Origin: Owenia fusiformis
Lineage: Eukaryota
NCBI GenBank assembly: GCA_903813345.2
Contig: CAIIXF020000001.1
Location: 24,862,001-24,926,000, forward strand
Direction: 5' to 3'
DNA: 64,000 nt
Shown here: positions 25,169-64,000 of the stretch, in pieces
Layout of the letters: the number at the start of each line of letters is the position of its first letter
Numbering within the stretch: position 1 is the first letter of the stretch
Notes under the pieces: generated by a model
The model's database searches: none
What the model saw: the letters and a program-made list of their open reading frames with translations, nothing else
What the model was told of the DNA's origin: nothing
Translations under genes and position numbers: made by a program

Positions 25169-28100
25169 CTACAGTTGATAATACAACAACTACAGTGGCT
25201 AGCACAACTACGGCTGATGCTACAACAACAGTTGCTGACGCAACTACAGTGGCTGGCGCAACTACGGCAGATACCACAGCAGCTGATGCTACAACTACAG
25301 TGGCTGACACAACTACAGGTGATGCTACTACAACAGTTGCTGATGCAACAACGGCTGATGTTACAACAACAGTAGCTGACACAACTACAGTGGCTGACGC
25401 AACTACGGCAGATACTACAGCAGCTGATGCCACAACTACAGTGGCTGACACAACTACAGCTGATGCTACCACAACAGTTGCTGACACAACTACAGTGGCT
25501 GACGTAACTACGGCAGATACTACAGCATCCGATGCTACAACAACAGTTGCTGACGCAACTACAGTTGCTGACACAACTACAGCTGATGCTACAACAACAG
25601 TTGCTGATGCAACAACGGCTGACGTTATAACAACAGTAGCTGACACAACTACAGTGGCTGACGCAACTACGGCAGATACGACAGCAGCTGATGCTACAAC
25701 TACAGTGGCTGACACAACCACAGCTGATGCTACAATAACAGTTGCTGATGCAACAACGACCGATGTTACAACAACAGTTGCTGACACAACTACAGTGGCT
25801 GACGCAACTACGGCAGATACTACAGCATCCGATGCTACAACAACAGTTGCTGACGCAACTACAGTTGCTGACACAACTACAGCTGATGCTACAACAACAG
25901 TTGCTGATGCAACAACGGCTGACGTTATAACAACAGTAGCTGACACAACTACAGTGGCTGGCGCAACTACGGCAGATACTACAGCAGCTGATGCTACAAG
26001 TACAGTGGCTGACACAACTACAGCTGATGCTACAACAACAGTTGCTGATGCAACAACGGCTGATGTTACAACAACAGTAGCTGACACAACTACAGTGGCT
26101 GACGCAACTACGGCAGATACTACAGCAGCTGATGCTACAACTACAGTGGCTGACACAACTACAGCTGATGCTACAACAACAGTTGCTGATGCAACGACGG
26201 CTGATGTAACAACAACAGTTGCTGACACAACTACAGTGGCTGACGCAACTACGGCAGATACTACAGCAGCTGATGCTACAACTACAGTGGCTGACACAAC
26301 TACAGCTGATGCTACAACAACAGTTGCTGATGCAACGACGGCTGATGTAACAACAACAGTTGCTGACACAACTACAGTGGCTGACGCAACTACGGCAGAT
26401 ACTACAGCAGGTGATGCTACAATCACAGTGGCTGACACAACTACAGCTGATGCTACAACAACAGTTGCTGATGCAACGACGGCTGATGTTACAACAACAG
26501 TAGCTGACACAACTACAGTGGCCGACGCAACTACGGCAGATACTACAGCAGCTGATGCTACAACTACAGTGGTTGAAACAACTACAGCTGATGCTACAAC
26601 AACAGTTGCTGATGTAACAACGGCTGATGTTACAACAACAGTTGCTGACATAACTACAGTGGCTGATACAACTACGGCAGAGACTACATCAGCTGATGCT
26701 ACAACTACAGTGGCTGACACAACTACAGCTGATGCTACAACAACAGTTACTGATGTAACAACGGCTGATGTTACAACAACAGTTGCTGACATAACTACAG
26801 TGGCTGATACAACTACGGCAGAGACTACAGCAGCTGATGCTACAACTACATTGGCTGACACAACTACAGCTGATGCTACAACAACGGTTGCTGATGCAAC
26901 AACGGCTGATGTTACAACAACAGTTGCTGACATAACTACAGTGGCTGACGCAACTACGGCAGATACTACAGCAGCTGATGCTACAACTACAGTGGCTGAC
27001 ACAACTACAGCTGATGCTACAACAACAGTTGCTGATGCAACAACGGCTGATGTTACAACAACAGTTGCTGAAACAACTACAGTGGCTGACGCAACTACGG
27101 CAGATACTACAGCAGCTGATGCTACAACTACAGTGGCTTACACAACTACAGCTGAGGCTACAACAACAGTTACTGATGCAACAACGGCTGATGTTACAAC
27201 AACAGTAGCTGACACAACTACAGTGGCTGACACAACTACGGCAGATACTACAGCAGCTGATGCTACAACAACAGTTGCTGATGCAACAACGTCTGATGTT
27301 TCAACAACAGTTGCTGACACAACTACAGTGGCTGACGCAACTACAGCTGATGCTACAACAACGGTTGCTGATGCAACAACGGCTGATGTTACAACAACAG
27401 TTGCTGACATAACTACAGTGGCTGATACAACTACGGCAGAGACTACAGCAGCTGATGCTACAACTACATTGGCTGACACAACTACAGCTGATGCTACAAC
27501 AACGGTTGCTGATGCAACAACGGCTGATGTTACAACAACAGTTGCTGACATAACTACAGTGGCTGACACAACTACAGCTGATGCTACAACAACGGTTGCT
27601 GATGCAACAACGGCTGATGTTACAACAACAGTTGCTGACATAACTACAGTGGCTGACGCAACTACGGCAGATACTACAGCAGCTGATGCTACAACTACAA
27701 TGGCTGACACAACTACAGCTGATGCTACAACAACAGTTGCTGATGCAACAACGGCTGATGTTACAACAACAGTTGCTGACACAACTACAGTGGCTGACGC
27801 AACTACGGCAGATACTACAGCAGCTGATGCTACAACTACAGTGGCTGACACAACTACAGCTGAGGCTACAACAACAGTTACTGATGCAACAACGGCTGAT
27901 GTTACAACAACAGTAGCTGACACAACTACAGTGGCTGACACAACTACGGCAGATACTACAGCAGCTGATGCTACAACTACAGTGGCTGACACAACTACGG
28001 CAGATACTACAGCAGCTGATGCTACAACAACAGTTGCTGATGCAACAACGGCTGATGTTTCAACAACAGTTGCTGACACAACTACAGTGGCTGACGCAAC

Positions 28101-31100
28101 TACAGCTGATGCTACAACAACAGTTGCTGATGCAACAACGGCTGATGTAACAACAACAGTTGCTGACACAACTACAGTGGCTGACGCCACTACGGCAGAT
28201 ACTACAGCATCTGATGCTACAACTACAGTGGCTGACACAACTACAGCTGACGCTACAACAACAGTTGCTGATGCAACAACGGCTGATGTTATAACAACAG
28301 TTGCTGACGCAACTACAGTTGCTGACACAACTACAGCTGATGCTACAACAACAGTTGCTGATGCAACAACGGCCGATGTTACAACAACAGTTGCTGACAC
28401 AACTACAGTGGCTGACGCAACTACGGCAGATACTACAGCAGCTGATGCTACAAGTACAGTGGCTGACACAACTACAGCTGATGCTACAGCAACAACGGCT
28501 GGTGTTACAACAACAGTAGCTGACACAACTACAGTGGCTGACGCAACTACGGCTGATACTACAGCAGCTGATGCTACAAGTACAGTGGCTGACACAACTA
28601 CAGCTGATGCTACAACAACAGTAGCTGACACAACTACAGTTGCTGACGGAACTACAGCTGATGCTACAACAACAGTTGCTGATGCAACAACGGGTGATGT
28701 TACAACAACAGTGGCTGACGCAACTACGGCAGATACTACAGCAGCTGATGCTACAAGTACAGTGGCTGACACAACTACAGCTGATGCTACAACAACAGTT
28801 GCTGGTGCAACAACGGCTGATGTTACAACAACAGTAGCTGACACAACTACAGTGGCTGACGCAACTACGGCAGATACTACAGCATCTGATGCTACAACTA
28901 CAGTGGCTGACACAACTACAGCTGACACTACAACAACAGTTGCTGATGCAACAACGGCTGATGTTACAACAACAGTTGCTGACGCAACTACAGTTGCTGA
29001 CACAACTACAGCTGATGCTTTAACAACAGTTGCTGATGCAACAACAGCTGATGTTACATCAACAGTTGCTGACACAACTACAGTGGCTGACGCAACTACG
29101 GCAGATACTACAGCAGCTGATGCTACAAGTACAGTGGCTGACACAACTACAGCTGATGCTACAACAACAGTTGCTGGTGCAACAACGGCTGATGTTACAA
29201 CAACAGTAGCTGACACAACTACAGTGGCTGACGCAACTACGGCAGATACTACAGCAGCTGATGCTACAAGTACAGTGGCTGACACAACTACAGCTGATGC
29301 TACAACAACAGTTGCTCATGCAACAACGGCTGATGTTACAACAACAGTAGCTGTCACAACTTCAGTGGCTGACGCAACTACGGCAGATACTACAGCAGCT
29401 GATGCTACAACTACAGTGGCTGACATAACTACAGCTGATGCTACAACAACAGTTGCTGATGCAACGACGACTGATGTTACAACAACAGTTGCTGACACAA
29501 CTACATTGGCTGACGCAACTACGGCAGATACTACAGCAACTGATGCTACAACTACAGTGGCTGACGCAACTACGGCAGATACTACAGCAGCTGATGCTAC
29601 AACAACAGTTGCTGATGCAACAACGGCTGATGTTTCAACAACAGTTGCTGACACAACTACAGTAGCTGACACAACTACAGCTGATGCTACAACAACAGTT
29701 GCTGATGCAACAACGGCTGATGTTACAACAACAGTTGCTGACACAACTACAGTGGCTGACACAACTACGGCAGATACTACAGTTGCTGATGCAACAACGG
29801 CTGATGTTACAACAACAGTAGCTGACACAACTACAGTGGCTGACACAACTACGGCAGATACTACAGCAACTGATGCTACAACTACAGTGGCTGACACAAC
29901 TACAGCTGATGCTACAACAACAGTTGCTGATGCAACAACGGCTGATGTTACAACAACAGTAGCTGACACAACTACAGTGGCTGACACAACTACAGCTGAT
30001 GCTACAACAACAGTTGCTGATGCAACAACGGCTGATGTTACAACAACAGAATCTGACACAACTACAGTTGCTGACGCAACTACGTCAGATACGACAGCAG
30101 CTGATGCTACAATTACAGTGGCTGACACAACTACAGCTGATGCTACAACAACAGTTGCTGATGCAACAACGGCTGATGTAACAACAACAGTAGCTGACAC
30201 AACTACAGTTGCTGACGGAACTACAGCTGATGCTACAACAACAGTTGCTGATGCAACAACGGCTGATGTTACAACAACAGTAGCTGACACAACTACAGTG
30301 GCTGACGCAACTACTGCAGATACGACAGCAGCTGATGCTACAACTACAGTGGCTGACACAACTACAGCTGATGCTACAACAACAGTTGCTGATGCAACAA
30401 CGGCTGATGTTACAACAACAGAAGCTGTCACAACTACAGTGGCAGACGCAACTACAGCAGATACTACAGCAGCTGATGCTACAATTACAGTGGCTGACAC
30501 AACTACAGCTGATGCTACAACAACAGTTGCTGGTTCAACAACGGCTGATGTTACAACAACAGTAGCTGACACAACTACAGTGGCTGACGCAACTACGGCA
30601 GATACTACAGCAGCTGATGCTACAAGTACAGTGGCTGACACAACTACAGCTGATGCTACAACAACAGTTGCTGATGCAACAACGGCTGATGTTACAACAA
30701 CAGTTGCTGACACAACTACAGTGGCTGACGCAACTACGGCAGATATTACAGCAGCTGATGCTACAACTACAGTGGCTGACACAACTACAGCTCATGCTAC
30801 AACAACAGTTGCTGATGCAACAATGGCTGATGTTACAACAACAGTAGCTGACACAACTACAGTGGCTGACGCAACTACGGCAGATACTACAGCATCTGAG
30901 GCTACAACTACAGTGGCTGACACAACTACAGCTGACGCTACAACAACAGTTGCTGATGCAACAACGGCTGATGTTACAACAACAGTTGCTGACGCAACTA
31001 CAGTTGGTGACACAACTACAGCTGATGCTTTAACAACAGTTGCTGAGGCAACAACGGCTGATGTTACAACAACAGTTGCTGACACAACTACAGTGGCTGA

Positions 31101-34100
31101 CGCAACTACGGCAGATACTACAGCAGCTGATGCTACAAGTACAGTGGCTGACACAACTACAGCTGATGATACAACAACAGTTGCTGGTGCAACAACGGCT
31201 GATGTTACAACAACAGTAGCTGACACAACTACAGTGGCTGACACAACTACGGCAGATACTACAGCAACTGATGCTACAACTACAGTGGCTGACACAACTA
31301 CAGCTGATGCTACAACAACAGTTGCTGATGCAACAACGGCTGATGTTACAACAACAGTAGCTGACACAACTACAGTGGCTGACACAACTACGGCAGATAC
31401 TACAGCAGCTGATGCTACAACAACAGTTGCTGATGCAACAACGGCTGATGTTTCAACAACAGTTGCTGACACAACTACAGTGGCTGACACAACTACAGCT
31501 GATGCTACAACAACAGTTGCTGATGCAACAATGGCTGATGTTACAACAACAGTTGCTGACACAACTACAGTGGCTGACGCAACTACGGCAGATACTACAG
31601 TTGCTGATGCAACAACGGCTGATGTTACAACAACAGTAGCTGACACAACTACAGTGGCTGACGCAACTACGGCAGATACTACAGCAGCTGATGCTACAAC
31701 TACAGTGGCTGACACAACTACAGCTGATGCTACAACAACAGTTGCTGATGCAACAACGGCTGATGTTACAACAACAGTTGCTGACATAACTACAGTGGCT
31801 GACGCAACTACGGCAGATACTACAGCAGCTGATGCTACAAGCACAGTGGCTGACACAACTACAGCTGATGCTACAACAACAGTTGCTGATGCAACAACGG
31901 CTGATGATACAACAACAGTAGCTGACACAACTACAGTGGCTGACGCAACTACGGCAGATACTACAGCAGCTGATGCTACAACTACAGGGGCTGACACAAC
32001 TACAGCTGATGCTACAACAACAGTTGCTGATGCAACAACGGCTGATGTTACAACAACAGAGTCTGACACAACTACAGTTGCTGACGCAACTACGGCAGAT
32101 ACGACAGCAGCTGATGCTACAACTACAGTGGCTGACACAACTACAGCTGATGCTACAACAACAGTTGCTGATGCAACAACGGCTGATGTAACAACAACAG
32201 TAGCTGACACAACTACAGTTGCTGACGGAACTACAGCTGATGCTACAACAACAGTTGCTGATGCAACAACGGCTGATGTTACAACAACAGTAGCTGACAC
32301 AACTACAGTGGCTGACGCAACTACGGCAGATACGACAGCAGCTGATGCTACAACTACAGTGGCTGACACAACTACAGCTGATGCTACAACAACAGTTGCT
32401 GATGCAACAACGGCTGATGTTACAACAACAGTAGCTGTCACAACTACAGTGGCTGACGCAACTACGGCAGATACTACAGCAGCTGATGCTACAATTACAG
32501 TGGCTGACACAACTACAGCTGATGCTACAACAACAGTTGCTGGTGCAACAACGGCTGATGTTACAACAACAGTAGCTGACACAACTACAGTGGCTGACGC
32601 AACTACGGCAGATACTACAGCAGCTGATGCTACAAGTACAGTGGCTGACACAACTACAGCTGATGCTACAACAACAGTTGCTGATGCAACAACGGCTGAT
32701 GTTACAACAACAGTTGCTGACACAACTACAGTGGCTGACGCAACTACGGCAGATACTACAGCAGCTGATGCTACAACTACAGTGGCTGACACAACTACAG
32801 CTCATGCTACAACAACAGTTGCTGATGCAACAACGGCTGATGTTACAACAACAGTAGCTGACACAACTACAGTGGCTGGCGCAACTACGGCAGATACTAC
32901 AGGATCTGATGCTACAACTACAGTGGCTGACACAACTACAGCTGACGCTACAACAACAGTTGCTGATGCAACAACGGCTGATGTTACAACAACAGTTGCT
33001 GACGCAACTACAGTTGCTGACACAACTACAGCTGATGCTTTAACAACAGTTGCTGATGCAACAACGGCTGATGTTACAACAACAGTTGCTGACACAACTA
33101 CAGTGGCTGACGCAACTACGGCAGATACTACAGCAGCTGATGCTACAAGTACAGTGGCTGACACAACTACAGCTGATGCTACAACAACAGTTGCTGGTGC
33201 AACAACGGCTGATGTTACAACAACAGTAGCTGACACAACTACAGTGGCTGACGCAACTACGGCAGATACTACAGCAGCTGATGCTACAACTACAGTGGCT
33301 GACACAACTACAGCTGATGCTACAACAACAGTTGCTGATGCAACAACGGCTGATGTTACAACAACAGTTGCTGACATAACTACAGTGGCTGACGCAACTA
33401 CGGCAGATACTACAGCAGCTGATGCTACAAGCACAGTGGCTGACACAACTACAGCTGATGCTACAACGACAGTTGCTGATGCAACAACGGCTGATGTTAC
33501 ATCAACAGTAGCTGGCACAACTACAGTGGCTGACGCAACTACGGCATATACTACAGCAGCTGATGCTACAACTACAGGGGCTGACACAACTACAGCTGAT
33601 GCTACAACAACAGTTGCTGATGCAACAACGGCTGATGTTACAACAACAGAATCTGACACAACTACAGTTGCTGACGCAACTACGGCAGATACGACAGCAG
33701 CTGATGCTACAACTACAGTGGCTGACACAACTACAGCTGATGCTACAACAACAGTTGCTGATGCAACAACAGCTGATGTAACAACAACAGTAGCTGACAC
33801 AACTTCAGTTGCTGACAGAACTACAGCTGATGCTACAACAACAGTTGCTGATGCAACAGCGGCTGATGTTACAACAACAGTAGCTGACACAACTACAGTG
33901 GCTGACGCAACTACGGCAGATACGACAGCAGCTGATGCTACAAGTACAGTGGCTGACACAACTACAGCTGATGCTACAACAACAGTTGGTGATGCAACAA
34001 CGGCTGATGTTACAACAACAGTAGCTGTCACAACTACAGTGGCTGACGCAACTACGGCAGATACTACAGCAGCTGATGCTACAACTACAGTGGCTGACAC

Positions 34101-37100
34101 AACTACAGCTGATGCTACAACAACAGTTGCTGATGCAACGACGACTGATGTTACAACAACAGTTGCTGACACAACTACAGTGGCTGACGCAACTACGGCA
34201 GATACTACAGCAACTGATGCTACAACTACAGTGGCTGACACAACTACAGCTGATGCTACAACAACGGTTGCTGATGCAACAACGGCTGATGTTACAACAA
34301 CAGTTGCTGACACAACTACAGTGGCTGACGCAACTACAGCAGATACTACAGTAGCTGATGCTACAAGTACAGTGGCTGACACAACTACAGCTGATGCTAC
34401 AACAACAGTTGCGGGTGCAACAACGGCTGATGTTACATCAACAGTAGCTGACACAACTACAGTGGCTGACGTAACTACGGCAGATACTACAGCAGCTGAT
34501 GCTACAAGTACAGTGGCTGACACAACTACAGCTGATGCTACAACAACGGTTGCTGATGCAACAACGGCTGATGTTACAACAACAGTTGCTGACACAACTA
34601 CAGTGGCTGACGCAACTACGGCAGATACTACAGCAGCTGATGCTACAACTACAGTTGCTGACACAACTACAGTGGCTGACACAACTACAGCTGATGCTAC
34701 AATAACAGTTGCTGATGCAACAACGGCTGATGTTACAACAACAGTAGCTGACACAACTACAGCTGATGCTACAACAACAGTTGCTGATGCAACAACGGCT
34801 GATGTTACAACAACAGTAGCTGACACAACTACAGTGGCTGACACAACTACGGCAGATACTACAGCAGCTGATGCTACAACAACAGTTGCTGATGCAACAA
34901 CGACTGATGTTTCAACAACAGTTGCTGACACAACTACAGTGGCTGACACAACTACAGCTGATGCTACAACAACAGTTGCTGATGCAACAATGGCTGATGT
35001 TACAACAACAGTTGCTGACACAACTACAGTGGCTGACGCAACTACGGCAGATACTACAGTTGCTGATGCAACAACGGCTGATGTTACAACAACAGTTGCT
35101 GACACAACTACAGTGGCTGACACAACTACAGCTGATGCTACAATAACAGTTGCTGATGAAACAACGGCTGATGTTACAACAACAGTAGCTGACACAACTA
35201 CAGTGGCTGACGCAACTACAGCAGATACTACAGTAGCTGATGCTACAAGTACAGTGGCTGACACAACTACAGCTGATGCTACAACAACAGTTACTGATGC
35301 AACAACGGCTGATGTTACAACAACAGTAGCTGACACAACTACAGTGGCTGACGCAACTACGGCAGATACTACAGCAGCTGATGCTACAACTACAGTGGCT
35401 GACACAACTACAGCTGATGCTACAACAACAGTTGCTGATGCAACAACGGCTGATCTTACAACAACAGTAGCTGACACAACTACAGTGGCTGACGCAACTA
35501 CGGCAGATACTACAGCAGCTAATGCTACAACAACAGTGGCTGACACAACTACAGTGGCTGACGCAACTACGGCAGATACTACAGCAGCTGATGCTACAAC
35601 TACAGTGGCTGACACAACTACAGCTGATGCAACAACAACAGTTGCTGATGCTACAACGGCTGATGTTACAACAACAGTAGCTGACACAACTACAGTGGCT
35701 GACGCAACTACGGCAGATACTACAGCAGCTGATGCTACAACTACAGTGGCTGACACAACTACAGCTGATGCTACAACAACAGTTGCTGATGCAACAACGG
35801 CTGATGTTACAACAACAGTAGCTGACACAACTACAGTGGCTGACGCAACTACGGCAGATACTACAGCAGCTGATGCTACAACTACAGTGGCTGACACAAC
35901 TACAGCTGATGCTACAACAACAGTTGCTGACACAACTACAGTGGCTGAAGCAACTACGGCAGATACTACAGCAGCTGATGCTACAACTACAGTGGCTGAT
36001 ACAACTACAGCTGATGCTACAACAACAGTTGCTGATGCAACAACGGCTGATGTTACAACAACAGTAGCTGACACAACTACAGTGGCTGACGCAACTACGG
36101 CAGATACTACAGCAGCTGATGCTACAACTACAGTGGCTGACACAACTACAGCTGATGCTACAACAACAGTTGCTGATGCAACAACGGCTGATGTTACAAC
36201 AACAGTAGCTGACACAACTACAGTGGCTGACGCAACTACGGCAGATACTACAGCAGCTGATGCTACAACTACAGTGGCTGACACAACTACAGCTGATGCT
36301 ACAACAACAGTTGCTGATGCAACAACGGCTGATGTTACAACAACAGTAGCTGGCACAACTACAGTGGCTGACGCAACTACGGCAGATACTACAGCAGTTG
36401 ATGCTACAACTACAGTGGCTGACACAACAATAGCTGATGCTACAACAACTTTTGCTGATGCTACAACGGCTGATGTTACAACAACAGTAGCTGACACAAC
36501 TACAGTGGCTGACGCAACTACGGCAGATACTACAGCAGCTGATGCTACAACTACAGTGGCTGACACAACTACAGCTGATGCTACAACAACAGTTGCTGAT
36601 GCAACAACGGCTGATGTTACAACAACAGTAGCTGACACAACTACAGTGGCTGACGCAACTATGGCAGATACTACAGCAGCTGATGCTACAACTACAGTGG
36701 CTGACACAACTACAGCTGATGCTACAACAACAGTTGCTGATGCAACAACGGCTGATGTTACAACAACAGTAGCTGACACAACTATAGTGGCTGACGCAAC
36801 TACGGCAGATACTACAGCTGCTGATGCTACAACAACAGAGGCTGACACATTTTCAGGTGATGCTACAACAACAGTTGCTGATGCAACAACGGCTGATGTT
36901 ACAACAACAGTAGCTGACACAACTACAGTGGCGGACGCAACTACGGCAGATACTACAGCAGCTGATGCTACAACTACAGTGGCTGACACAACTACAGCTG
37001 ATGCTACAACAACAGTTGCTGATGCAACAACGGCTGATGCTACAACAACAGTAGCTGACACAACTACAGTGGCTGACGCAACTACGGCAGATACTACAGC

Positions 37101-40100
37101 AGCTGATGCTACAACAACAGAGGCTGACACAACTACAGTGGCTGACGCAACTACGGCAGATACTACAGCAGCTGATGCTACAACTACAGTGGCTGACACA
37201 ACTACAGCTGATGCTACAACAACAGTTGCTGATGCTACAACGGCTGATGTTACAACAACAGTAGCTGACACAACTACAGTGGCTGACGCAACTACGGCAG
37301 ATACTACAGCAGCTGATGCTACAACTACAGTGGCTGACACAACTACAGCTGATGCTACAACAACAGTTGCTGATGCAACAACGGCTGATGTTACAACAAC
37401 AGTAGCTGACACAACTACAGTGGCTGACGCAACTACGGCAGATACTACAGCAGCTGATGCTACAACTACAGTGGCTGACACAACTACAGCTGATGCTACA
37501 ACAACAGTTGCTGACACAACTACAATGGCTGAAGCAACTACGGCAGATACTACAGCAGCTGATGCTACAACTACAGTGGCTGATACAACTACAGCTGATG
37601 CTACAACAACAGTTGCTGATGCAACAACGGCTGATGTTACAACAACAGTAGCTGACACAACTACAGTGGCTGACGCAACTACGGCAGATACTACAGCAGC
37701 TGATGCTACAACTACAGTGGCTGACACAACTACAGCTGATGCTACAACAACAGTTGCTGATGCAACAACGGCTGATGTTACAACAACAGTAGCTGACACA
37801 ACTACAGTGGCTGACGCAACTACGGCAGATACTACAGCAGCTGATGCTACAACTACAGTGGCTGACACAACTACAGCTGATGCTACAACAACAGTTGCTG
37901 ATGCAACAACGGCTGATGTTACAACAACAGTAGCTGGCACAACTACAGTGGCTGACGCAACTACGGCAGATACTACAGCAGCTGATGCTACAACTACAGT
38001 GGCTGACACAACAATAGCTGATGCTACAACAACTTTTGCTGATGCTACAACGGCTGATGTTACAACAACAGTAGCTGACACAACTACAGTGGCTGACGCA
38101 ACTACGGCAGATACTACAGCAGCTGATGCTACAACTACAGTGGCTGACACAACTACAGCTGATGCTACAACAACAGTTGCTGACACAACTACAGTGGCTG
38201 ATGCAACTACGGCAGATACTACAGCAGCTGATGCTACAACTACAGTGGCTGATACAACAATAGCTGATGCTACAACAACTTTTGCTGATGCTACAACGGC
38301 TGATGTTACAACAACAGTAGCTGACACAACTACAGTGGCTGACGCAACTACGGCAGATACTACAGCAGCTGATGCTACAACTACAGTGGCTGACACAACT
38401 ACAGCTGATGCTACAACAACAGTTGCTGATGCAACAACGGCTGATGTTACAACAACAGTAGCTGACACAACTACAGTGGCTGACGCAACTATGGCAGATA
38501 CTACAGCAGCTGATGCTACAACTACAGTGGCTGACACAACTACAGCTGATGCTACAACAACAGTTGCTGATGCAACAACGGCTGGTGTTACAACAACAGT
38601 AGCTGACACAACTACAGTGGCTGACGCAACTACGGCAGATACTACAGCAGCTGATGCTACAACAACAGAGGCTGACACATTTTCAGGTGATGCTACAACA
38701 ACAGTTGCTGATGCAACAACGGCTGATGTTACAACAACAGTAGCTGGCACAACTACAGTGGCTGACGCAACTACGGCAGATACTACAGCAGCTGATGCTA
38801 CAACTACAGTGGCTGACACAACAATAGCTGATGCTACAACAACTTTTGCTGATGCTACAACGGCTGATGTTACAACAACAGTAGCTGACACAACTACAGT
38901 GGCTGACGCAACTACGGCAGATACTACAGCAGCTGATGCTACAACTACAGTGGCTGACACAACTACAGCTGATGCTACAACAACAGTTGCTGATGCAAAA
39001 ACGGCTGATGTTACAACAACAGTAGCTGACACAACTACAGTGGCTGACGCAACTACGGCAGATACTACAGCAGCTGATGCTACAACTACAGTGGCTGACA
39101 CAACTACAGCTGATGCTACAACAACAGTTGCTGATGCAACAACGGCTGATGTTACAACAACAGTAGCTGGCACAACTACAGTGGCTGACGCAACTACGGC
39201 AGATACTACAGCAGCTGATGCTACAACTACAGTGACTGACACAACAACAGCTGATGCTACAACAACTTTTGCTGATGCTACAACGGCTGATGTTACAACA
39301 ACAGTAGCTGACACAACTACAGTGGCTGACGCAACTACGGCAGATACTACAGCAGCTGATGCTTCAACTACAGTGGCTGACACAACTACAGCTGATGCTA
39401 CAACAACAGTTGCTGATGCAACAACGGCTGATGTTACAACAACAGTAGCTGGCACAACTACAGTGGCTGACGCAACTACGGCAGATACTACAGCAGCTGA
39501 TGCTACAACAACAGAGGCTGACACATTTTCAGGTGATGCTACAACAACAGTTGCTGATGCAACAACGGCTGATGTTACAACAACAGTAGCTGACACAACT
39601 ACAGTGGCTGACGCAACTACGGCAGATACTACAGCAGCTGATGCTACAACTACAGTGGCTGACACAACTACAGCTGATGCTACAACAACAGTTCCTGATG
39701 CAACAACGGCTGATGTTACAACAACAGTAGCTGACACAACTACAGTGGCTGACGCAACTACGGCAGATACAACAGCAGCTGATGCTACAACAACAGAGGC
39801 TGACACATTTTCAGGTGATGCTACAACAACAGTTGCTGATGCAACAACGGCTGATGTTACAACAACAGTAGCTGACACAACTACAGTGGCTGATGCAACT
39901 ACGGCAGATACTACAGCAGCTGATGCTACAACTACAGTGGCTGACACAACTACAGCTGATGCTACAACAACAGTTGCTGATGCAACAACGGCTGATGTTA
40001 CAACAACAGTAGCTGACACAACTACAGTGGCTGACGCAACTACGGCAGATACTACAGCAGCTGATGCTACAACTACAGTGGCTGACACAACTACAGCTGA

Positions 40101-48674: not shown

Positions 48675-48681
48675 GAACATC

Positions 48682-51660: not shown

Positions 51661-51722
51661 AATACTTTATAAACTCATAGATCTGAAACCTGTGCAAGTA
51701 AACATTTAACATTTATTTGAAG

Positions 51723-54700
51723 ATATGGCTGATGTTACAACAACAGTAGCTGACACAACTACAGTGGCTGACGCAACCATGGCAGATACTACATCAGCAG
51801 ATGCTACAACTACAGTGACTGACACAACTACAGCTTATGCTACAACAACAGTTGTTGATGCAACAACGGCTGATGCTACAACAACAGTAACTGACACAAC
51901 TACAGTGGCTGATGCAACTACGGCAGATACTACAGCAGCTGATGCTACAACTACAGTGGCTGACACAACTACAGCTGATGCTACAACAACAGTTGCTGAT
52001 GCAACAACGGCTGATATTACAACAACAGTTGCTGACACAACTACAGTGGCTGACGCAACTACGGCAGATACTACAGCAGCTGATGCTACAACTACAGTGG
52101 CTGACACAACTACAGCTGATGCAACAACAACAGTTGCTGATGCAACAACGGCTGATGTTACAACAACAGTAGCTGACACAACTACAGTGGCTGATGCAAC
52201 TACGGCAGATACTACAGCAGCTGATGCTACAACAACATTAGCTGATGCAACAACGGCTGATGTTACAACAACAGTAGCTGATGCAACAACGGCTGATGTT
52301 ACAACAACAGTAGCTGACACAATTACAGTGGCTGAAACAACTACAGCAGATACTACAGCAGCTGATGCTACAACTACAGTGGCTGACACAACTGCAGCTG
52401 ATGCTACAACAACAGTTGCTGATGTAACAACAGCTGATGTTACAGCAACAGTTGCTGACACAACTACAGTGGCTGACGCAACTACGGCATATACTACAGC
52501 AGCTGATGCTACAACTACAGTGGCTGACACAACTTCAGCTGATGCTACTACAACAGTTGCTGATGCAACAACGGCTGATGTTACAACAACAGTAGCTGAC
52601 ACAACTACAGTGGCTGACGCAACTACGGCAGATACTACAGCAGCTGATGCTACAACTACAGTGGCTGACACAACTACAGCTGATGCTACTACAACAGTTG
52701 CTGATGCAACAACGGCTGATGTTACAACAACAGTTGCTGACACAACTACAGTGGCTGACGCAACTACGGCAGATACTACAGCAGCTGATGCTACAACAAC
52801 ACTAGCTGATGCAACAACGGCTGATGTTACAACAACAGTAGCTGGTGCAACAACGGCTGATGTTACAACAACAGTAGCTGACACAACTACAGTGGCTGAC
52901 GCAACTACGGCAGATACTACAGCAGCTGATGCTACAAGTACAGTGGCTGACACAACTACAGCTGATGCTGCAACAACGGCTGATGTTACAACAACAGTAG
53001 CTGATACAACTACAGCTGATGCTACTACAACAGTTGCTGATGCAACAACGGCTGATGTTACAACAACAGTTGCTGACACAACTACAGTGGCTGACGCAAC
53101 TACGGCAGATACAACAGCAGCTGATGCTACAACTACAGTGGCTGACACAACTACAGCTGATGCTACAACAACAGTTGCTGATGCAACAACGGCTGATGTT
53201 ACAACGACAGTAGCTGACACAGCTACAGTGGCTGACGCAACTACGGCAGATTCAACAGCAGCTGATGCTACAACTACAGTGGCTGACACAACTTCAGCTG
53301 ATGCTACAACTACAGTTGCTGATGCAACAACGGCTGATGTTACAACAACAGTTGCTGACACAACAACAGTTGCTGACGCAACTACGGCTGATGTTACAAC
53401 AACAGTTGCTGACACAACTACAGTGGCTGACGCAACTACGGCAGATACTACAGCAGCTGATGCTACAAGTACAGTTGATGCTACAAGTACAGCTGATGCT
53501 ACAACAACAGTTGCTGATGCAACAACGGCTGATGTTACAACAACAATAGCTGACACAACTACAGTGGCTGACGCTACTACGGCAGATACAACAGCAGCTG
53601 ATGCTACAACTACAGTCGCTGACACAACTTCAGCTGATGCTACAACTACAGTTGCTGATGCAACAACGGCTGATGTTACAACAACAGTTGCTGACACAAC
53701 TACAGTTGCTGACGCAACTACGGCTGATGTAACAACAACAGTAGCTGACACAACTACAGTGGCTGACACAAATACGGCAGATACAACAGCAGCTGATGCT
53801 ACAAGTACAGTGGCTGACACAACTACAGCTGATGCTACAACAACAGTTGCTGATGCAACAACGGCTGATGTTACAACAACAGTAGCTGACACAACTACAG
53901 TTGCTGATGCAACAGCGGCTGATGTTACAACAACAGTTGCTGACACAACTACAGTGGCTGACGCAACTACGGCATATACTACAGCAGCTGATGCTACAAC
54001 TACAGTGGCTGACACAACTACAGCTGATGCTGCAACAACAGTTGCTGATGCAACAACGGCTGATGTTACAACAACAGTAGCTGATACAACTACAGCTGAT
54101 GCTACTACAACAGTTGCTGATGCAACAACGGCTGATGTTACAACAACAGTTGCTGACACAACTACAGTGGCTGACGCAACTACGGCAGATACAACAGCAG
54201 CTGATGCTACAACTACAGTGGCTGACACAACTACAGGTGATGCTACAACAACAGTTGCTGATGCAACAACGGCTGATGTTACAACAACAGTAGCTGACAC
54301 AGCTACAGTGGCTGACGCAACTACGGCAGATACAACAGCAGCTGATGCTACAACTACAGTGGCTGACACAACTTCAGCTGATGCTACAACTACAGTTGCT
54401 GATGCAACAACGGCTGATGTTACAACAACAGTTGCTGACACAACAACAGTTGCTGACGCAACTACGGCTGATGTTACAACAACAGTTGCTGACACAACTA
54501 CAGTGGCTGACGCAACTACGGCAGATACTACAGCAGCTGATGCTACAAGTACAGTTGATGCTACAAGTACAGCTGATGCTACAACAACAGTTGCTGATGC
54601 AACAACGGCTGATGTTACAACAACAATAGCTGACACAACTACAGTGGCTGACGCTACTACGGCAGATACAACAGCAGCTGATGCTACAACTACAGTCGCT

Positions 54701-57700
54701 GACACAACTTCAGCTGATGCTACAACTACAGTTGCTGATGCAACAACGGCTGATGTTACAACAACAGTTGCTGACACAATTACAGTTGCTGACGCAACTA
54801 CGGCTGATGTAACAACAACAGTAGCTGACACAACTACAGTGGCTGACGCAAATACGGCAGATACAACAGCAGCTGATGCTACAAGTACAGTGGCTGACAC
54901 AACTACAGCTGATGCTACAACAACAGTTGCTGATGCAACAACGGCTGATGTTACAACAACAGTAGCTGACACAACTACAGTTGCTGATGCAACAACGGCT
55001 GATGTTACAACAACAGTTGCTGACACAACTACAGTTGCTGATGCAACAACGGCTGATGTTACAACAACAGTTGCTGACACAACAACAGTGGCTGACGCAA
55101 CTACGGCAGATACAACAGCAGCTGATGCTACAACTACAGTGGCTGACACAACTACAGCTGATGCTACAACAACAGTTGCTGATGCAACAACGGCTGATGT
55201 TACAACAACAGTAGCTGACACAGCTACAGTGGCTGACGCAACTACGGCAGATACAACAGCAGCTGATGCTACAACTACAGTGGCTGACACAACTTCAGCT
55301 GATGCTACAACAACAGTTGCTGATGCAACAACGGCTGATGTTACAACAACAGTTGCTGACACAACTACAGTGGTTGACGCAACTACGGCAGATACATCAG
55401 CAGCTGATGCTACAACTACAGTGGCTGACACAACTACAGCTGATGCTACAATAACAGTTTCTGATGCAACAACGGCTGATGTTACAACAACAGTTGCTGA
55501 CACAACTACAGTGGCTGACGCAACTACGGCAGATACTACAGCAGCTGATGCTACAAGTACAGTGGCTGACACAACTACAGCTGATGCTGCAACAACAGTT
55601 GCTGATGCAACAACGGCTGATGTTACAACAACAGTAGCTGATACAACTACAGCTGATGCTACTACAACAGTTGCTGATGCAACAACGGCTGATGTTACAA
55701 CAACAGTTGCTGACACAACTACAGTGGCTGACGCAACTACGGCAGATACAACAGCAGCTGATGCTACAACTACAGTGGCTGACACAACTACAGCTGATGC
55801 TACAACAACAGTTGCTGATGCAACAACGGCTGATGTTACAACAACAGTAGCTGACACAGCTACAGTGGCTGACGCAACTACGGCAGATACAACAGCAGCT
55901 GATGCTACAACTACAGTGGCTGACACAACTTCAGCTGATGCTACAACTACAGTTGCTGATGCAACAACGGCTGATGTTACAACAACAGTTGCTGACACAA
56001 CAACAGTTGCTGACGCAACTACGGCTGATGTTACAACAACAGTTGCTGACACAACTACAGTGGCTGAAGCAACTACGGCAGATACTACAGCAGCTGATGC
56101 TACAAGTACAGTTGATGCTACAAGTACAGCTGATGCTACAACAACAGTTGCTGATGCAACAACGGCTGATGTTACAACAACAATAGCTGACACAACTACA
56201 GTAGCTGACGCTACTACGGCAGATACAACAGCAGCTGATGCTACAACTACAGTCGCTGACACAACTTCAGCTGATGCTACAACTACAGTTGCTGATGCAA
56301 CAACGGCTGATGTTACAACAACAGTTGCTGACACAACTACAGTTGCTGACGCAACTACGGCTGATGTAACAACAACAGTAGCTGACACAACTACAGTGGC
56401 TGACGCAAATACGGCAGATACAACAGCAGCTGATGCTACAAGTACAGTGGCTGACACAACTACAGCTGATGCTACAACAACAGTTGCTGATGCAACAACG
56501 GCTGATGTTACAACAACAGTAGCTGACACAACTACAGTTGCTGATAAAACAACGGCTGATGTTACAATAACAGTTGCTGACACAACTACAGTGGCTGACG
56601 CAACTACGGCATATACTACAGCAGCTGATGCTACAACTACAGTGGCTGACACAACTACAGCTGATGCTGCAACAACAGTTGCTGATGCAACAACGGCTGA
56701 TGTTACAACAACAGTAGCTGATACAACTACAGCTGATGCTACTACAACAGTTGCTGATGCAACAACGGCTGATGTTACAACAACATTTGCTGACACAACT
56801 ACAGTGGCTGACGCAACTACGGCAGATACAACAGCAGCTGATGCTACAACTACAGTGGCTGACACAACTACAGGTGATGCTACAACAACAGTTGCTGATG
56901 CAACAACGGCTGATGTTACAACAACAATAGCTGACACAACTACAGTGGCTGACGCTACTACGGCAGATACAACAGCAGCTGATGCTACAAGTACAGTTGA
57001 TTCTACAAGTACAGCTGATGCTACAACAACAGTTGCTGACACAACTACAGTGCCTGACGCAACTACGGCAGATATAACAGCAGCTGATGCTACAACTACA
57101 GTGGCTGACACAACTACAGCTGATGCAACAACAACAGTTGCTGATGCAACAACGGCTGATGTAACAACAACAGTAGCTGACACAACTACAGTGGCTGACG
57201 CAACTACGGCAGATACAACAGCAGCTGATGCTACAACTACAGTGGCTGACACAACTACAGCTGATGCTACAACAACAGTTGCTGATGCAACAACGGCTGA
57301 TGTTACAACAACAGTAGCTGACACAACTACAGTTGCTGATGCAACAACGGCTGATGTTACAACAACAGTTGCTGACACAACTACATTGGCTGACGCAACT
57401 ACGGCAGATACTACAGCAGCTGATGCTACAACTGCAGTGGCTGACACAACTACAGCTGATGCAACAACAACAGTTGCTGATGCAACAACGGCTGATGTAA
57501 CAACAACAGTAGCTGACACAACTACAGTGGCTGACGCAACTACGGCAGATACAACAGCAGCTGATGCTACAACTACAGTGGCTGACACAACTACAGCTGA
57601 TGCTACAACAACAGTTGCTGATGCAACAACGACTGATGTTACAACAACAGTAGCTGACACAACTACAGTTGCTGATGCAACAACGGCTGATGTTACAACA

Positions 57701-60700
57701 ACAGTTGCTGACACTACAACAGTGGCATACGCAACTACGGCAGATACTACAGCAGCTGATGCTACAAGTACAGTGGCTGACACAACTTCAGCTGATGCTA
57801 CAACTACAGTTGCTGATGGAACAACGGCTGATGTTACAACAACAGTTGCTGACACAACAACAGTTGCTGACTCAACTACGGCTGATGTTACAACAACAGT
57901 TGCTGACACAACTACAGTGGCTGACGCAACTACGGCAGATACTACAGCAGCTGATGCTACAAGTACAGTTGATGCTACAAGTACAGCTGATGCTACAACA
58001 ACAGTTGCTGATGCAACAACGGCTGATGTTACAACAACAATAGCTGACACAACTACAGTGGCTGACGCTACTACGGCAGATACAACAGCAGCTGATGCTA
58101 CAACTACAGTCGCTGACACAACTTCAGCTGATGCTACAACTACAGTTGCTGATGCAACAACGGCTGATGTTACAACAACAGTTGCTGACACAATTACAGT
58201 TGCTGACGCAACTACGGCTGATGTAACAACAACAGTAGCTGACACAACTACAGTGGCTGACGCAAATACGGCAGATACAACAGCAGCTGATGCTACAAGT
58301 ACAGTGGCTGACACAACTACAGCTGATGCTACAACAACAGTTGCTGATGCAACAACGGCTGATGTTACAACAACAGTAGCTGACACAACTACAGTTGCTG
58401 ATGCAACAACGGCTGATGTTACAACAACAGTTGCTGACACAACTACAGTTGCTGATGCAACAACGGCTGATGTTATAACAACAGTTGCTGACACAACAAC
58501 AGTGGCTGACGCAACTACGGCAGATACTACAGCAGCTGATGCTACAACTACAGTGGCTGACACAACTACAGCTGATGCTACAACAACAGTTGCCGATGCA
58601 ACAACGGCTGATGTTACAACAACAGTAGCTGACACAGCTACAGTGGCTGACGCAACTACGGCAGATACAACAGCAGCTGATGCTACAACTACAGTGGCTG
58701 ACACAACTTCAGCTGATGCTACAACTACAGTTGCTGATGCAACAGCGGCTGATGTTACAACAACAGTTGCTGACACAACTACAGTTGCTGACGCAACTAC
58801 GGCTGATGTTGCAACAACAGTTGCTGACACAACTACAGTGGCTGACGCAACTACGGCAGATACTACAGCAGCTGATGCTACAAGTACAGTTGATTCTACA
58901 AGTACAGCTGATGCTACAACAACAGTTGCTGACACAACTACAGTGCCTGACGCAACTACGGCAGATACAACAGCAGCTGATGCTACAACTACAGTGGCTG
59001 ACACAACTTCAGCTGATGCTACAACTACAGTTGCTGATGCAACAACGGCTGGTGTTACAACAACAGTAGCTGACACAACTACAGTGACTGACACAACTAC
59101 AGCATATACAACAGAAGCTGATGCTACAACTACATTGGCTGACACAACTTCAGCTGATGCTACAACACCAGTTGCTGATGCAACAACGGCTGATGTTACA
59201 ACAACAGTTGCTGACACAACTACAGTGCCTGACGCAACTACGGCAGATACAACAGCAGCTGATGCTACAACTACAGTGGCTGACACAACTTCAGCTGATG
59301 CTACAACTACAGTTGCTGATGCAACAGCGGCTGATGTTACAACAACAGTTGCTGACACAACTACAGTTGCTGACGCAACTACGGCTGATGTTGCAACAAC
59401 AGTTGCTGACACAACTACAGTGGCTGACGCAACTACGGCAGATACTACAGCAGCTGATGCTACAAGTACAGTTGATTCTACAAGTACAGCTGATGCTACA
59501 ACAACAGTTGCTGATGCAACAACGGCTGATGTTACAACAACAATAGCTGACACAACTACAGTGGCTGACGCAACTACGGCAGATACAACAGCAGCTGATG
59601 CTACAACTACAGTCGCTGACACAACTTCAGCTGATGCTACAACTACAGTTGCTGATGCAACAACGGCTGATGTTACAACAACAGTTGCTGACACAACTAC
59701 ATTGGCTGACGCAACTACGGCAGATACTACAGCAGCTGATGCTACAACTGCAGTGGCTGACACAACTACAGCTGATGCAACAACAACAGTTGCTGATGCA
59801 ACAACGGCTGATGTAACAACAACAGTAGCTGACACAACTACAGTGGCTGACGCAACTACGGCAGATACAACAGCAGCTGATGCTACAACTACAGTGGCTG
59901 ACACAACTACAGCTGATGCTACAACAACAGTTGCTGATGCAACAACGGCTGATGTTATAACAACAGTAGCTGACACAACTACAGTTGCTGATGCAACAAC
60001 GGCTGATGTTACAACAACAGTTGCTGACACTACAACAGTGGCATACGCAACTACGGCAGATACTACAGCAGCTGATGCTACAAGTACAGTGGCTGACACA
60101 ACCACAGCTGATGCTACAACAACAGTTGCTGATGCAACAACGGCTGATGTTACAACAACAGAAGCTGACACAACTACAGTGGCTGACGCAACTACGGCAG
60201 ATACAACAGCAGCTGATGCTACAACTACAGTGGCTGACACAACCTCAGCTGATGCTACAACTACAGTGGCTGACACAACTACAGCTGATGCTTCAACATC
60301 AGTTGCTGATGCAACAACAGCTGATGTTACAACAACAGTAGCTGACACAACTACAGTTGCTGACGCAACTACGGCAGATACTACAGCAGCTGATGCTACA
60401 ACTACAGTGGCTGACACAACTACAGCTGATGCTACAACAACAGTTGCTGATGCAACAACGGCTGATGTTACAACAACAGTAGCTGAGACAACTACAGTGG
60501 CTGACACAATTACCGCAGATACTACAGCAGCTGATGCTACAACTACAGTGGCTGACACAACTACAGCTGATGCTACTACAACAGTTGCTGATGCAACAAC
60601 GGCTGATGTTACAACAACAGTTGCTGACACAACTACAGTGGCTGACGCAACTACGGTAGATACAACAGCAGCTGATGCTACAACTACAGTGGCTGACACA

Positions 60701-63700
60701 ACTTCAGCTGATGCTACAACAACAGTTGCTGATGCAACAACAGCTGATATTACAACAACAGTAGCTTACACAACCACAGTGGCTGACGCAACTACGGCAG
60801 ACACTACAGCAGCTGATGCTGCAACTACAGTGGCTGACACAACTACAGCTGATGCTACAACAACAGTTGCTGATGCAACAACGGCTGATGTTACAACAAC
60901 AATAGCTGACACAACTACAGTGGCTGACGCAACTACGGCAGATACAACAGCAGCTGATGCTACAGGTACAGTCGCTGACACAACTACAGCTGATGCCACA
61001 ACAACAGCTGCTGATGCATTAACAGCTGATATTACAACAACAGTAGCTGACACAACTACAGTGGCTGACGCAACTACGGCAGATACTACAGCAGCTGATG
61101 CTACAACAACACTTGCTGATGCAACAACGGCTGATGTTACAACAACAGTAGCTGATGCAACTACAGTGGCTGACGCAACTACGGTAGATACTACAGCAGC
61201 TGATGCTACAACTACAGTGGCTGACACAACTACAGCTGATTCTACAACAACAGTTGCTGATGCAACAACGGCTGATGTTACAACAACAGTAGCTGACACA
61301 ACTACAGTGACTGACACAACTACAGCATATACAACAGCAGCTGATGCTACAACTACATTGGCTGACACAACTTCAGCTGATGCTACAACACCAGTTGCTG
61401 ATGCAACAACGGCTGATGTTACAACAACAGTTGCTGACACAACTACAGGGCCTAACGCAACTACGGCAGATACAACAGCAGCTGATGCTACAACTACAGT
61501 GGCTGACACAACTACAGCTGATGCTACAACAACAGTTGCTGATGCAACAACGGCTGATGTTACAACAACAGTAGCTGACACAACTACAGCAGATACAACA
61601 GCAGCTGATGCTACAACTACAGTGGCTGACACAGCTTCAGCTGATGCTACAACAACAGTTGCTGATGCAACAACGGCTGATGTTACAACAACAGTTGCTG
61701 ACACAACTACAGTGGCTGACGCAACTACGGCAGATACTACAGCAGCTGATGCTACATATACAGTGGCTGACACAACTACAGCTGATGCTACAACAACAGT
61801 TGCTGATGCAACAACGGCTGATGTAACAACAACAGTAGCTGACACAACTACAGTGGCTGGCGCAACTACGGCAGATACAACAGCAGCTGATGCTACAAGT
61901 ACAGTGGCTGACACAACTACAGCTGATGCTACAACAACAGTTGATGATGCAACAACAGCTGATATTACAACAACGGTAGATTACACAACCACAGTGGCTG
62001 ACGCAACTACGGCAGATACTACAGCAGCTGATGCTACAACTACAGTGGCTGACACAACTAAAGCTGATGCTACAACAACAGTTGCTGATGCAACAACGGC
62101 TGATGTTACAACAACAGTAGCTGACACAACCACAGTGGCTGATGCAACTACGGCAGATACTACAGCAGCTGATGCTACAAGTACAGTGGCTGACACAACT
62201 ACAGCTGATGCCACAGCAACAGCTGCTGATGCATTAACAGCTGATATTACAACAACAGTAGCTGACACAACTACAATGGCTGACGCAACTACGGCAGATA
62301 CTACAGCAGCTGATGCTACAACAACACTTGCTGATGCAACAACGGCTGATGTTACAACAACAGTAGCTGATGCAACTACAGTGGCTGACGCAACTACGGT
62401 AGATACTACAGCAGCTGATGCTACAACTACAGTGGCTGACACGACTACAGCTGATTCTACAACAACAGTTGCTGATGCAACACCGGCTGGTGTTACAACA
62501 ACAGTAGCTGACACAACTACAGTGACTGACACAACTACAGCATATACAACAGCAGCTGATGCTACAACTACATTGGCTGACACAACTTCAGCTGATGCTA
62601 CAACACCAGTTGCTGATGCAACAACGGCTGATGTTACAACAACAGTTGCTGACACAACTACAGTGCCTGACGCAACTACGGCAGATACTACAGCAGCTGA
62701 TGCTACAACTACAGTGGCTGACACAACTACAGCTGATGCTACAACAACAGTTGCTGATGCAACAACGGCTGATGTTACAACAACAGTAGCTGACACAACT
62801 ACAGCAGATACAACAGCAGCTGATGCTGCAACTACAGTGGCTGACACAACTTCAGCTGATGCTACAACAACAGTTGCTGATGCAACAACGGCTGATGTTA
62901 CAACAACAGTTGCTGACACAACTACAGTGGCTGACGCAACTACGGCAGATACTACAGCAGCTGATGCTACATCTTCAGTGGCTGACACAACTACAGCTGA
63001 TGCTACAACAACAGTTGCTGATGCAACAACGGCTGATGTAAAAACAACAGTAGCTGACACAACTACAGTGGCTGTCGCAACTACGGCAGATACAACAGCA
63101 GCTGATGCTACAACTACAGTGGCTGAGACAACTACAGCTGATGCTACAACAACAGTTGCTGATGCAACAACGGCTGATGTTACAACAACAGTGGCTGACA
63201 CAACTACAGTGGCTGACGCAACTACAGTGGCTGACGCAACTACGGCAGATACTACAACAGCTGATGCTACAAGTACAGTGGCTGACACAACTACAGCTGA
63301 TGCTACAACAACAGTTGCTGATGCAACAACGGCTGATGTTACAACAACAGTAGCTGACACAACTACAGTGGCTGACGCAATTACGGCAGATACTACAGCA
63401 GCTGATGCTACAACTACAGTAGCTGACACAACTACAGTGGCTGACACAACTACAGCAGATACAACAGCAGCTGATGCTACAACTACAGTGGCTGACACAA
63501 CTTCAGCTGATGCTACAACAACAGTTGCTGATGCAACAACGGCTGATGTTACAACAACAGTTGCTGACACAACTACAGTGGCTGACGCAACTACGGCACA
63601 TACTACAGCAGCTGATGCTACAACTACAGTGGCTGACACAACTACAGCTGATGCTACAACAACAGTTGCTGATGCAACAACGGCTGATGTTACAACAACA

Positions 63701-64000
63701 GTAGCTGACACAACTACAGTGGCTGAGGCAACTACGGCAGATACAACAGCAGTTGATGCTACAACTACAGTGGCTGACACAACTTCAGCTGATGCTACAA
63801 CTACAGTGGCTGACACAACTACAGCTGATGCTACAACAACAGTTGCTGATGCAACAACGGCTGATGTTACAACAACAATAGCTGACACAACTACTGTGGC
63901 TGACGCAACTACGGCAGATACAACAGCAGCTGATGCTACAACTACAGTCGCTGACACAACTTCAGCTGATGCTACAACTACAGTTGCTGATGCAACAACG
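51723..64000 (+). CDS. Giant coding exon B (at least 4,092 codons, runs off the window) of the same Thr/Ala/Asp/Val repeat family
   Basis: Acceptor CATTTATTTGAAG|AT ATG GCT GAT (phase 1) lies exactly at the repeat start. The frame at 51725 equals the frame at 63998, and all antisense shadow ORFs keep one register. It is probably missing from the ORF track because no stop is reached. Confidence 0.8.

What the first reader, a model, noticed from the sequence alone, without database searches (positions are those of the whole stretch)
25169..64000. Paired giant exons encoding a four-amino-acid, proline-free, acidic Thr-rich secreted polymer
Seen: two uninterrupted coding arrays (16.5 kb and at least 12.3 kb). 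The consensus 47-mer is 21 Thr, 13 Ala, 8 Asp and 5 Val, with no Cys and almost no Pro, Lys or Arg, giving about -8 charge per unit over roughly 117 units in exon A. Established: mucin PTS domains are often single giant exons, but they are normally Pro/Ser-rich. Inference: this is an atypical secreted polyanionic O-glycoprotein, possibly a mucus/slime, adhesive, tube/egg-coat or Ca-binding matrix protein. The Thr/Ala periodicity also recalls ice-binding and antifreeze glycoproteins. The function cannot be determined from the sequence.
Basis: partly seen in the sequence, partly recalled or inferred. Interest (0 to 1): 0.8.

Follow-up and report, generated by a model that had tools for sequence, protein, structure and literature searches.

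The report
Giant acidic membrane-anchored worm mucin
The two huge repeat stretches are the first two of three giant exons of a roughly 19,800-residue cell-surface mucin of the MUC4 type in a marine worm, and the same acidic, proline-free repeat also fills three neighbouring mucin genes of different build, one predicted at about 43,000 residues.

Summary
Observation confirmed; 'secreted polymer' and 'paired' are not. Exons A (25169-41662) and B (51723-65447) plus a third, C (23.8 kb, beyond the window), all phase 1-1, lead into 25 GT-AG exons encoding NIDO-AMOP-VWD(GDPH)-C8-Ig-EGFs-SEA-EGF-TM-tail: one frame of 19,781 aa with a candidate signal exon at 17323-17380. One spliced contig joins exon C's end to NIDO; joints into A and B were not tested, and three raw RNA runs show almost no exon reads. 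The last 1,685 aa equal a public Owenia fusiformis protein lacking the repeat exons. So: a MUC4-type tethered mucin whose repeat has 43.5% Ser+Thr, 0.14% Pro, net charge about -2,970. Antifreeze periodicity is absent. The surprise is outside the finding: the same 141-nt unit (consensus 0-4 nt apart) fills three neighbours with other architectures, including a predicted 43,034-aa SEA/EGF mucin whose membrane end is only 30% identical to this gene's; no RNA test there. The scan noted parts of two neighbours before, on adjacent DNA. New variant of a known kind.

The parts
17323..17380 (+). Candidate exon 1 (signal-peptide-like, 19 codons, phase-1 donor); two paralogous alternative first exons lie upstream of the window (C1:24848137, 24842747)
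   Evidence: Top-scoring ATG-hydrophobic-donor candidate of 9 listed in 50 kb; 69-80% DNA identity among the three; in frame with exon A. No signal-peptide predictor run, no RNA.
25169..41662 (+). Giant repeat exon A, 16,494 nt, phase 1-1, ~117 units of the 47-aa Thr/Ala/Asp/Val repeat
   Evidence: splice use inferred from GT-AG and phase, not seen in RNA
41663..51722 (+). Intron A-B (10,060 nt), includes a 162-nt x5 repeat at 50468-51271
51723..64000 (+). Giant repeat exon B, 13,725 nt, phase 1-1; runs 1,447 nt past the window end. Beyond the window the gene goes on with giant exon C (23,841 nt, G000:C1:24939617-24963457) and 25 exons (C1:24964239-24977115) for NIDO, AMOP, VWD with GDPH, C8, Ig-like, EGFs, SEA, EGFs, TM helix and tail
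   Evidence: exon C's last 242 nt spliced GT-AG to the NIDO exons, 15 listed joints in one 7,126-nt contig; Pfam; model ends exactly with public protein P0001

Best explanation
The arrays are exons 2 and 3 of a 29-exon, ~98-kb gene (W) for a type I membrane mucin of MUC4-type build, 19,781 aa (1.9 MDa bare). Shown: exon chain, single open frame, domains, splicing from exon C into NIDO. Inferred mechanism: a signal peptide sends it into the secretory path; the 18,021-aa repeat (7,844 Ser/Thr, no Cys) is O-glycosylated into an extended bottle-brush whose Asp residues, one every 5-7 positions, give a built-in negative charge of about -2,970; the chain self-cleaves at GDPH (aa 18,448) into a repeat-NIDO-AMOP alpha part and a membrane-held beta part, as described for MUC4; it forms a thick hydrated, cation-binding glycocalyx on an epithelium, and the alpha part may be shed into mucus. 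The repeat unit is young and shared with three neighbouring mucin genes by block transfer or gene conversion; selection keeps frame and composition rather than exact sequence.
For: 28 exons from A to stop, all GT-AG, give one frame of 19,762 aa with a single terminal stop. Run X11 holds one 7,126-nt contig spliced from exon C's last 242 nt through 15 listed introns. Pfam NIDO 2.9e-17, VWD 1.6e-11, C8-3_MUC4 7.3e-8, SEA 4.2e-8, EGF_CA 7 stretches, AMOP 4.2e-6 at exon level. GDPH at 18,448; MUC4 cleavage there per PMC8660890 passages. One TM-like segment. No frameshift in 54 kb of W arrays or 125 kb of U arrays, against 13 frameshifting indels per 102 substitutions in a nearby LTR pair; exon A's 154 distinct substitutions would predict about 20. 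Consensus units of 12 arrays in 4 genes differ by 0-4 of 141 nt while W and U membrane-proximal ends are 30% identical over 349 aa.
Against: Joints exon1-A, A-B and B-C were not tested by RNA; the contig holds only the degenerate last 242 nt of exon C, so an internal start or acceptor is not excluded. Three raw RNA runs (6-12% of each read) gave about zero depth on the 3' exons. pN/pS within arrays is 0.44, 0.59, 1.40 for B, A, C and 0.84-1.12 for U5, M1a, M1b: little amino-acid-level constraint. The indel control comes from AT-rich DNA and may overstate the rate in a repeat without homopolymers; neighbours M1 and M2 do carry frame breaks. The public protein starts inside NIDO. AMOP was not reported in the whole-protein scan. 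Glycosylation, cleavage and tissue are untested.
Confidence: 0.78

Rival explanations
1. Exons A and B are silent or skipped; only a short form (end of exon C plus NIDO-TM) is made, and the arrays are codon-phased satellite spread by conversion.
For: Only 242 nt of exon C are seen in RNA; pN/pS near 1 in several arrays; stops cannot arise in one step; public model omits the arrays.
Against: Each array starts at an AG and ends at a GT in phase 1 with the array filling the exon; no frameshift in 54 kb; all listed matches of the unit lie in the arrays of four TM genes (only 40 of 442 and 150 of 2,039 candidates were scored, and 71 and 139 matches were not listed); the contig ends where the repeat begins to be uniform, as short-read assemblies do (inference).
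Confidence: 0.1
2. The main product is a secreted, anchor-less polyanion (slime, tube lining or adhesive).
For: Composition fits a secreted polyanion; GDPH cleavage could release the repeat-bearing part; read-through of exon A's donor meets a stop at 41764.
Against: The one transcript seen continues from exon C into NIDO-VWD-EGF exons, and the model and public protein end in a TM helix and tail. No Cys in the repeat and no multi-VWD head for polymerisation.
Confidence: 0.07
3. The Pro-free, beta-branched repeat folds as a rigid beta-solenoid rod with Thr/Asp ladders that bind ice, Ca2+ or mineral grains.
For: AlphaFold2 on five units gives regular strands with a period near 23.5 residues; Thr and Val make up over half of the residues.
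Against: Mean pLDDT 52.7, pTM 0.54, 8 of 235 residues above 70; no PDB match at E<=0.001; AlphaFold2 is reported to give unrealistic solenoids for repeats, mucin 22 included (PMC11795689 passages); sub-units vary between 5, 6 and 7 residues; no Thr-x-Thr or lag-3 pattern.
Confidence: 0.07

Closest known systems
Human MUC4 (tethered mucin; TR-NIDO-AMOP-VWD/GDPH-EGF-TM)
   Same: Repeat domain N-terminal to NIDO, AMOP, VWD with GDPH, EGFs, TM and tail (PMC8660890 passages).
   Different: Repeat over three exons, 54 kb versus a longest MUC4 allele of 27,843 bp (PMC13345508 passages); almost no Pro, 16% Asp; many more EGFs (MUC4 has three); an added SEA domain and Ig-like domain. Orthology not tested.
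Invertebrate mucin4-like proteins (Acropora skeletal-matrix mucin4-like; Lytechinus 'mucin-4-like' P0004; Bulinus P0002; Biomphalaria P0003)
   Same: NIDO-AMOP-VWD-EGF type core; 28-31% identity over 55-91% of the 710-aa query, GDPH present in P0002-P0006 (PMC4890752 passages).
   Different: Coral forms carry TSP1 repeats at the N-terminus; P0002 and P0003 have no long Ser/Thr-rich region, P0004 a short one (about 300 aa).
Human MUC12 / MUC3B / MUC22 (giant or Pro-poor repeat exons)
   Same: Size range: MUC12 up to 23,080 aa, MUC3B exon 2 39,267 bp (PMC9578598 passages); the permuted MUC22 unit printed in PMC11795689 has no Pro.
   Different: No NIDO-AMOP-VWD (recalled); unrelated repeat sequence.
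Xenopus tropicalis mucins with alternating SEA and PTS domains (for neighbour gene U)
   Same: Alternating SEA and Thr-rich blocks (PMC4948705 passage).
   Different: Described as secreted; U is predicted TM-anchored, with cbEGF in each module, 43,034 aa.
Schistosoma mansoni SmPoMuc family (concerted evolution of mucin repeats between genes)
   Same: Repeats homogenised within and between genes, ascribed to gene conversion (PMC2576457 passages).
   Different: There all genes are one family and introns are homogenised while exons differ; here coding repeats are shared among genes of three architectures.

Membership tests
MUC4-type tethered mucin | NIDO, AMOP and VWD domains in order after the repeat | tested here: met
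   AMOP passes its cut-off only in the exon-level scan (27.4 bits vs 25).
MUC4-type tethered mucin | GDPH site at the start of VWD | tested here: met
   aa 18,448; cleavage itself not testable.
MUC4-type tethered mucin | EGF domains, one TM helix, cytoplasmic tail | tested here: met
   (hydropathy only).
MUC4-type tethered mucin | Large N-terminal tandem-repeat domain in the same mRNA | tested here: inconclusive
   Exon C end joined to NIDO in RNA; A and B by splice sites and phase only.
MUC4-type tethered mucin | Signal peptide | tested here: inconclusive
   Candidate exon 17323-17380; it does not reach the 19-residue hydropathy threshold; no predictor, no RNA.
MUC4 proper (orthologue) | No SEA domain (recalled) and orthology to vertebrate MUC4 | tested here: not met
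   SEA present, E 4.2e-8; no tree with vertebrate MUC4 could be built. Works like MUC4; not filed as MUC4 itself.
PTS domain (Lang et al. 2016) | Ser+Thr at least 40% | tested here: met
   7,844 of 18,021 = 43.5%; criterion.
PTS domain (Lang et al. 2016) | Pro often above 5% | tested here: not met
   26 of 18,021; at most 3 per 100.
Mucins generally | Dense O-glycosylation | not testable with these tools
   Needs glycoproteomics.
Antifreeze glycoproteins / Thr-x-Thr ice-binding proteins (motifs recalled) | Thr every third residue, or Thr-x-Thr arrays | tested here: not met
   Lag 3 at 0.13x, lag 2 at 0.55x expected.
Gel-forming mucins | Several N-terminal VWD-C8-TIL units, secreted, cystine knot | tested here: not met
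   One VWD, C-terminal to the repeat; TM present (description).

The most novel reading that the evidence does not exclude
A 141-bp coding cassette has recently spread among four neighbouring mucin genes of three architectures (NIDO-AMOP-VWD, multi-SEA/EGF, and bare repeat-TM), giving one animal about 100,000 residues of the same Asp-spaced Thr brush on different anchors with different release sites; one of them, gene U, is made as a single 43,034-aa chain from a 129-kb coding sequence with a 61.5-kb exon, longer than titin and within 5% of PKZILLA-1 (45,212 aa).
Probability: 0.4. Interest if true: 0.75.

Novelty: new variant of a known kind. Interest (0 to 1): 0.5.

Why it matters
It shows a full MUC4-type membrane mucin, with a giant repeat domain, in an annelid; the 2016 survey passage names Xenopus as the deepest animal with a Muc4-like protein as of 2007, and coral forms carry TSP1 repeats at that end. 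The public model misses 91% of the protein, so Pro-free repeat exons may be dropped from other invertebrate annotations. A charge written into the peptide (regular Asp) is a simple, testable design for a polyanionic brush. The shared cassette gives a clean case of repeat exchange between old, differently built genes, and neighbour U would be among the longest proteins predicted if its exons are joined.

Tried and rejected
Pfam on 500 aa of the repeat: 0 families. Repeat as protein query, longer proteins only (824-2,350 aa): 3 compositional hits, none with this unit; weak evidence. Exhaustive phmmer with the NIDO exon: 10 hits, unnamed apart from P0001, not followed. RNA-run search: no RNA holder listed on record. 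AlphaFold2 solenoid and Foldseek: low confidence, no match. DNA hairpin of two units: z -1.69, 11 of 200 shuffles as good. pN/pS as proof of coding: not supportive. Test for ongoing exchange: identical units with two or more derived alleles W-U 1 and W-M1 2 (8 of 200 shuffles reach each), W-M2 0, U-M1 0; cannot separate one block transfer from repeated conversion. First automatic splice picks for gene U were out of frame and were corrected by homology between modules. Small exons inside introns A-B and B-C: one weak candidate (69269-69328), not used. Paper searches that showed no description of this gene or repeat in their listings (listed papers mostly not opened); the library lacks most subscription papers and no supplements were read, where a gene list could name it.
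Full report
Observation. The window has two + strand stop-to-stop frames, 25105-41763 (5,553 aa) and 51710 onward (4,097 aa in the window), each 96% Thr/Ala/Asp/Val, with a 141-nt period. Exon A's consensus is 21 Thr, 13 Ala, 8 Asp, 5 Val; its 5,497 codons hold 0 Cys, 2 Pro, 1 Lys, 1 Arg. An open frame is weak evidence here, because no single substitution in the consensus gives a stop.

The gene. The window is G000:C1:24862001-24926000. Flanking DNA shows exon B ending at window position 65447, a third array exon C (77617-101457 in window numbering) and then small exons. With the joints and GT-AG sites, 28 exons from A to the stop give one frame of 19,762 aa; A, B and C are all phase 1-1. The best signal-like first exon is 17323-17380; two paralogous copies lie 31 and 37 kb further upstream; each is in frame with A. 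Total 19,781 aa, 29 exons, 97.8 kb. Pfam gives NIDO, AMOP, VWD, MUC4-like C8, Ig-like, EGF/cbEGF and SEA; GDPH sits at aa 18,448; one hydrophobic segment marks the TM helix. The last 1,685 aa equal public protein P0001, labelled 'unnamed protein product [Owenia fusiformis]', which starts inside NIDO and lacks the repeat exons.

Expression. Of four runs laid on the 10 kb from exon C's end to the EGF exons, X11 (contigs, library not on record) holds one 7,126-nt contig, depth 40, that begins with 242 nt of exon C and runs through 15 listed GT-AG joints (4 further joints not shown). The three raw RNA runs X15-X17 (one study, 6-12% of each read) show about zero depth on these exons, so the gene is off or rare in those samples. 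Joints into A and B were not tested.

Selection. No frameshift occurs in 54 kb of W arrays or 125 kb of U arrays. Six local control pairs gave 32 frameshifting indels per 140 substitutions, the LTR pair alone 13 per 102; at the lower rate exon A's 154 distinct substitutions predict about 20. The control is AT-rich DNA and may overstate the rate. Against strong sequence constraint, pN/pS is 0.59, 0.44 and 1.40 in A, B and C, and 0.84-1.12 in three neighbour arrays. I read this as selection on frame and composition only.

How it likely works (inference from the architecture and from MUC4; PMC8660890, passages). Signal peptide, O-glycosylation of up to 7,844 Ser/Thr, self-cleavage at GDPH into a repeat-bearing alpha and a membrane beta subunit, and a long polyanionic brush (net about -2,970; Asp every 5, 6 or 7 residues) on an epithelial surface, sheddable into mucus. 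Tissue, glycans and cleavage are untested. Antifreeze-type spacing is absent. AlphaFold2 draws a beta-solenoid at mean pLDDT 52.7 with no PDB match, a known bias for repeats (PMC11795689, passages).

The neighbourhood. The same unit fills three more genes within 0.9 Mb. Gene U, directly upstream, has five arrays alternating with SEA and cbEGF exons, then a conventional Pro-containing Ser/Thr region, EGF, SEA, EGFs, TM and tail: 22 exons, all GT-AG, 129,105 nt, 43,034 aa, one exon of 61,478 nt; six SEA loops carry a Gly-Ser-aliphatic motif like the self-cleavage site (motif recalled). It has no RNA test, and some boundaries were set by homology between its modules. Genes M1 and M2 (- strand) have a signal-like exon, a furin-like basic site (recalled), array, TM and tail, about 22,800 and 17,200 aa if their five frame breaks are read errors, which is unproven; 35 kb of M2 has only 7 distinct units among 249 and may be an assembly collapse. 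Consensus units of all 12 arrays differ by 0-4 of 141 nt; W shares exact runs of 138-382 nt with M1/M2 and 128-219 nt with U, and derived-allele frequencies correlate 0.85 (W-U), 0.69 (W-M1) and 0.03 (W-M2). Yet W and U are only 30% identical over 349 aa of their shared membrane-proximal end. The repeat is therefore far younger than the genes; a single block transfer and ongoing conversion cannot be told apart. Two earlier notes of this scan cover the end of M1 and the 3' part of U; I had modelled both before seeing them.

Comparison. It works like MUC4 but is not filed as MUC4: it has a SEA domain, fails the usual Pro content of PTS domains (PMC4948705, passages), and orthology was not tested. 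[quoted passage not shown] Size is within the human range: MUC12 reaches 23,080 aa (PMC13345508, passages), MUC3B exon 2 is 39,267 bp (PMC9578598, passages). Conversion among mucin repeats is known in Schistosoma (PMC2576457, passages). PKZILLA-1 is 45,212 aa, about 25% larger than titin (bioRxiv 10.1101/2024.01.29.577497, passages). Searches listed nothing on this gene; supplements were not read.

Verdict. Real, coding and partly shown to be spliced; an extreme, Pro-free variant of a known kind of tethered mucin. Interest 0.5, carried mostly by the shared repeat and gene U, whose full-length expression remains to be shown.

Noticed in passing
G000:C1:24665888-24837314 (+), upstream of the window (L019-L036): Gene U: predicted 43,034-aa TM mucin, five arrays of the same repeat alternating with SEA and cbEGF exons; largest exon 61,478 nt; no RNA test.
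   Followed up: partly
G000:C1:25535727-25456263 and 25601086-25541152 (-) (L042-L057): Genes M1 and M2: signal-like exon, basic cleavage-like site, same repeat, TM and acidic tail in one giant second exon; two and three frame breaks; 35 kb of M2 almost perfectly uniform.
   Followed up: partly
window 17323; G000:C1:24848137 and 24842747: Three paralogous signal-like first exons, all phase 1; a short Thr-rich frame at C1:24849181-24849339 follows the middle one. Possible alternative promoters.
   Followed up: partly
window 7276-9762 and 9940-11908; C1:24857538-24859530: LTR retroelement: gag-protease frame (zinc knuckles, Pfam), two ~2-kb LTR-like copies 90% alike, interrupted by about 8 kb of other DNA.
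   Followed up: partly
window 18508-20149 (+) and 22027-22406 (-): Broken frames resembling a LINE reverse transcriptase and a mariner-type transposase (recognised from recalled motifs) inside the first intron.
   Followed up: no
window 24584-24883: 300-bp element with 39 further listed copies at 93-100% identity on many contigs (40 of 2,056 candidates scored).
   Followed up: no
window 50468-51271: Five copies of a 162-nt unit in intron A-B.
   Followed up: no
G000:C1:24832252 to window 25169: U's SEA exons end in phase 1 and W's exon A starts in phase 1, so a read-through splice would stay in frame; no evidence that it occurs.
   Followed up: no
G000:C1:25018653-25014067, 25010198-25008495, 25042651-25041731 (-): Frames that look like a serpin and two guanylate-cyclase-type proteins downstream of the gene (by eye).
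   Followed up: no
G000, several contigs: 21 NIDO matches over the cut-off at about a dozen loci; whether others carry giant repeat exons was not checked.
   Followed up: no
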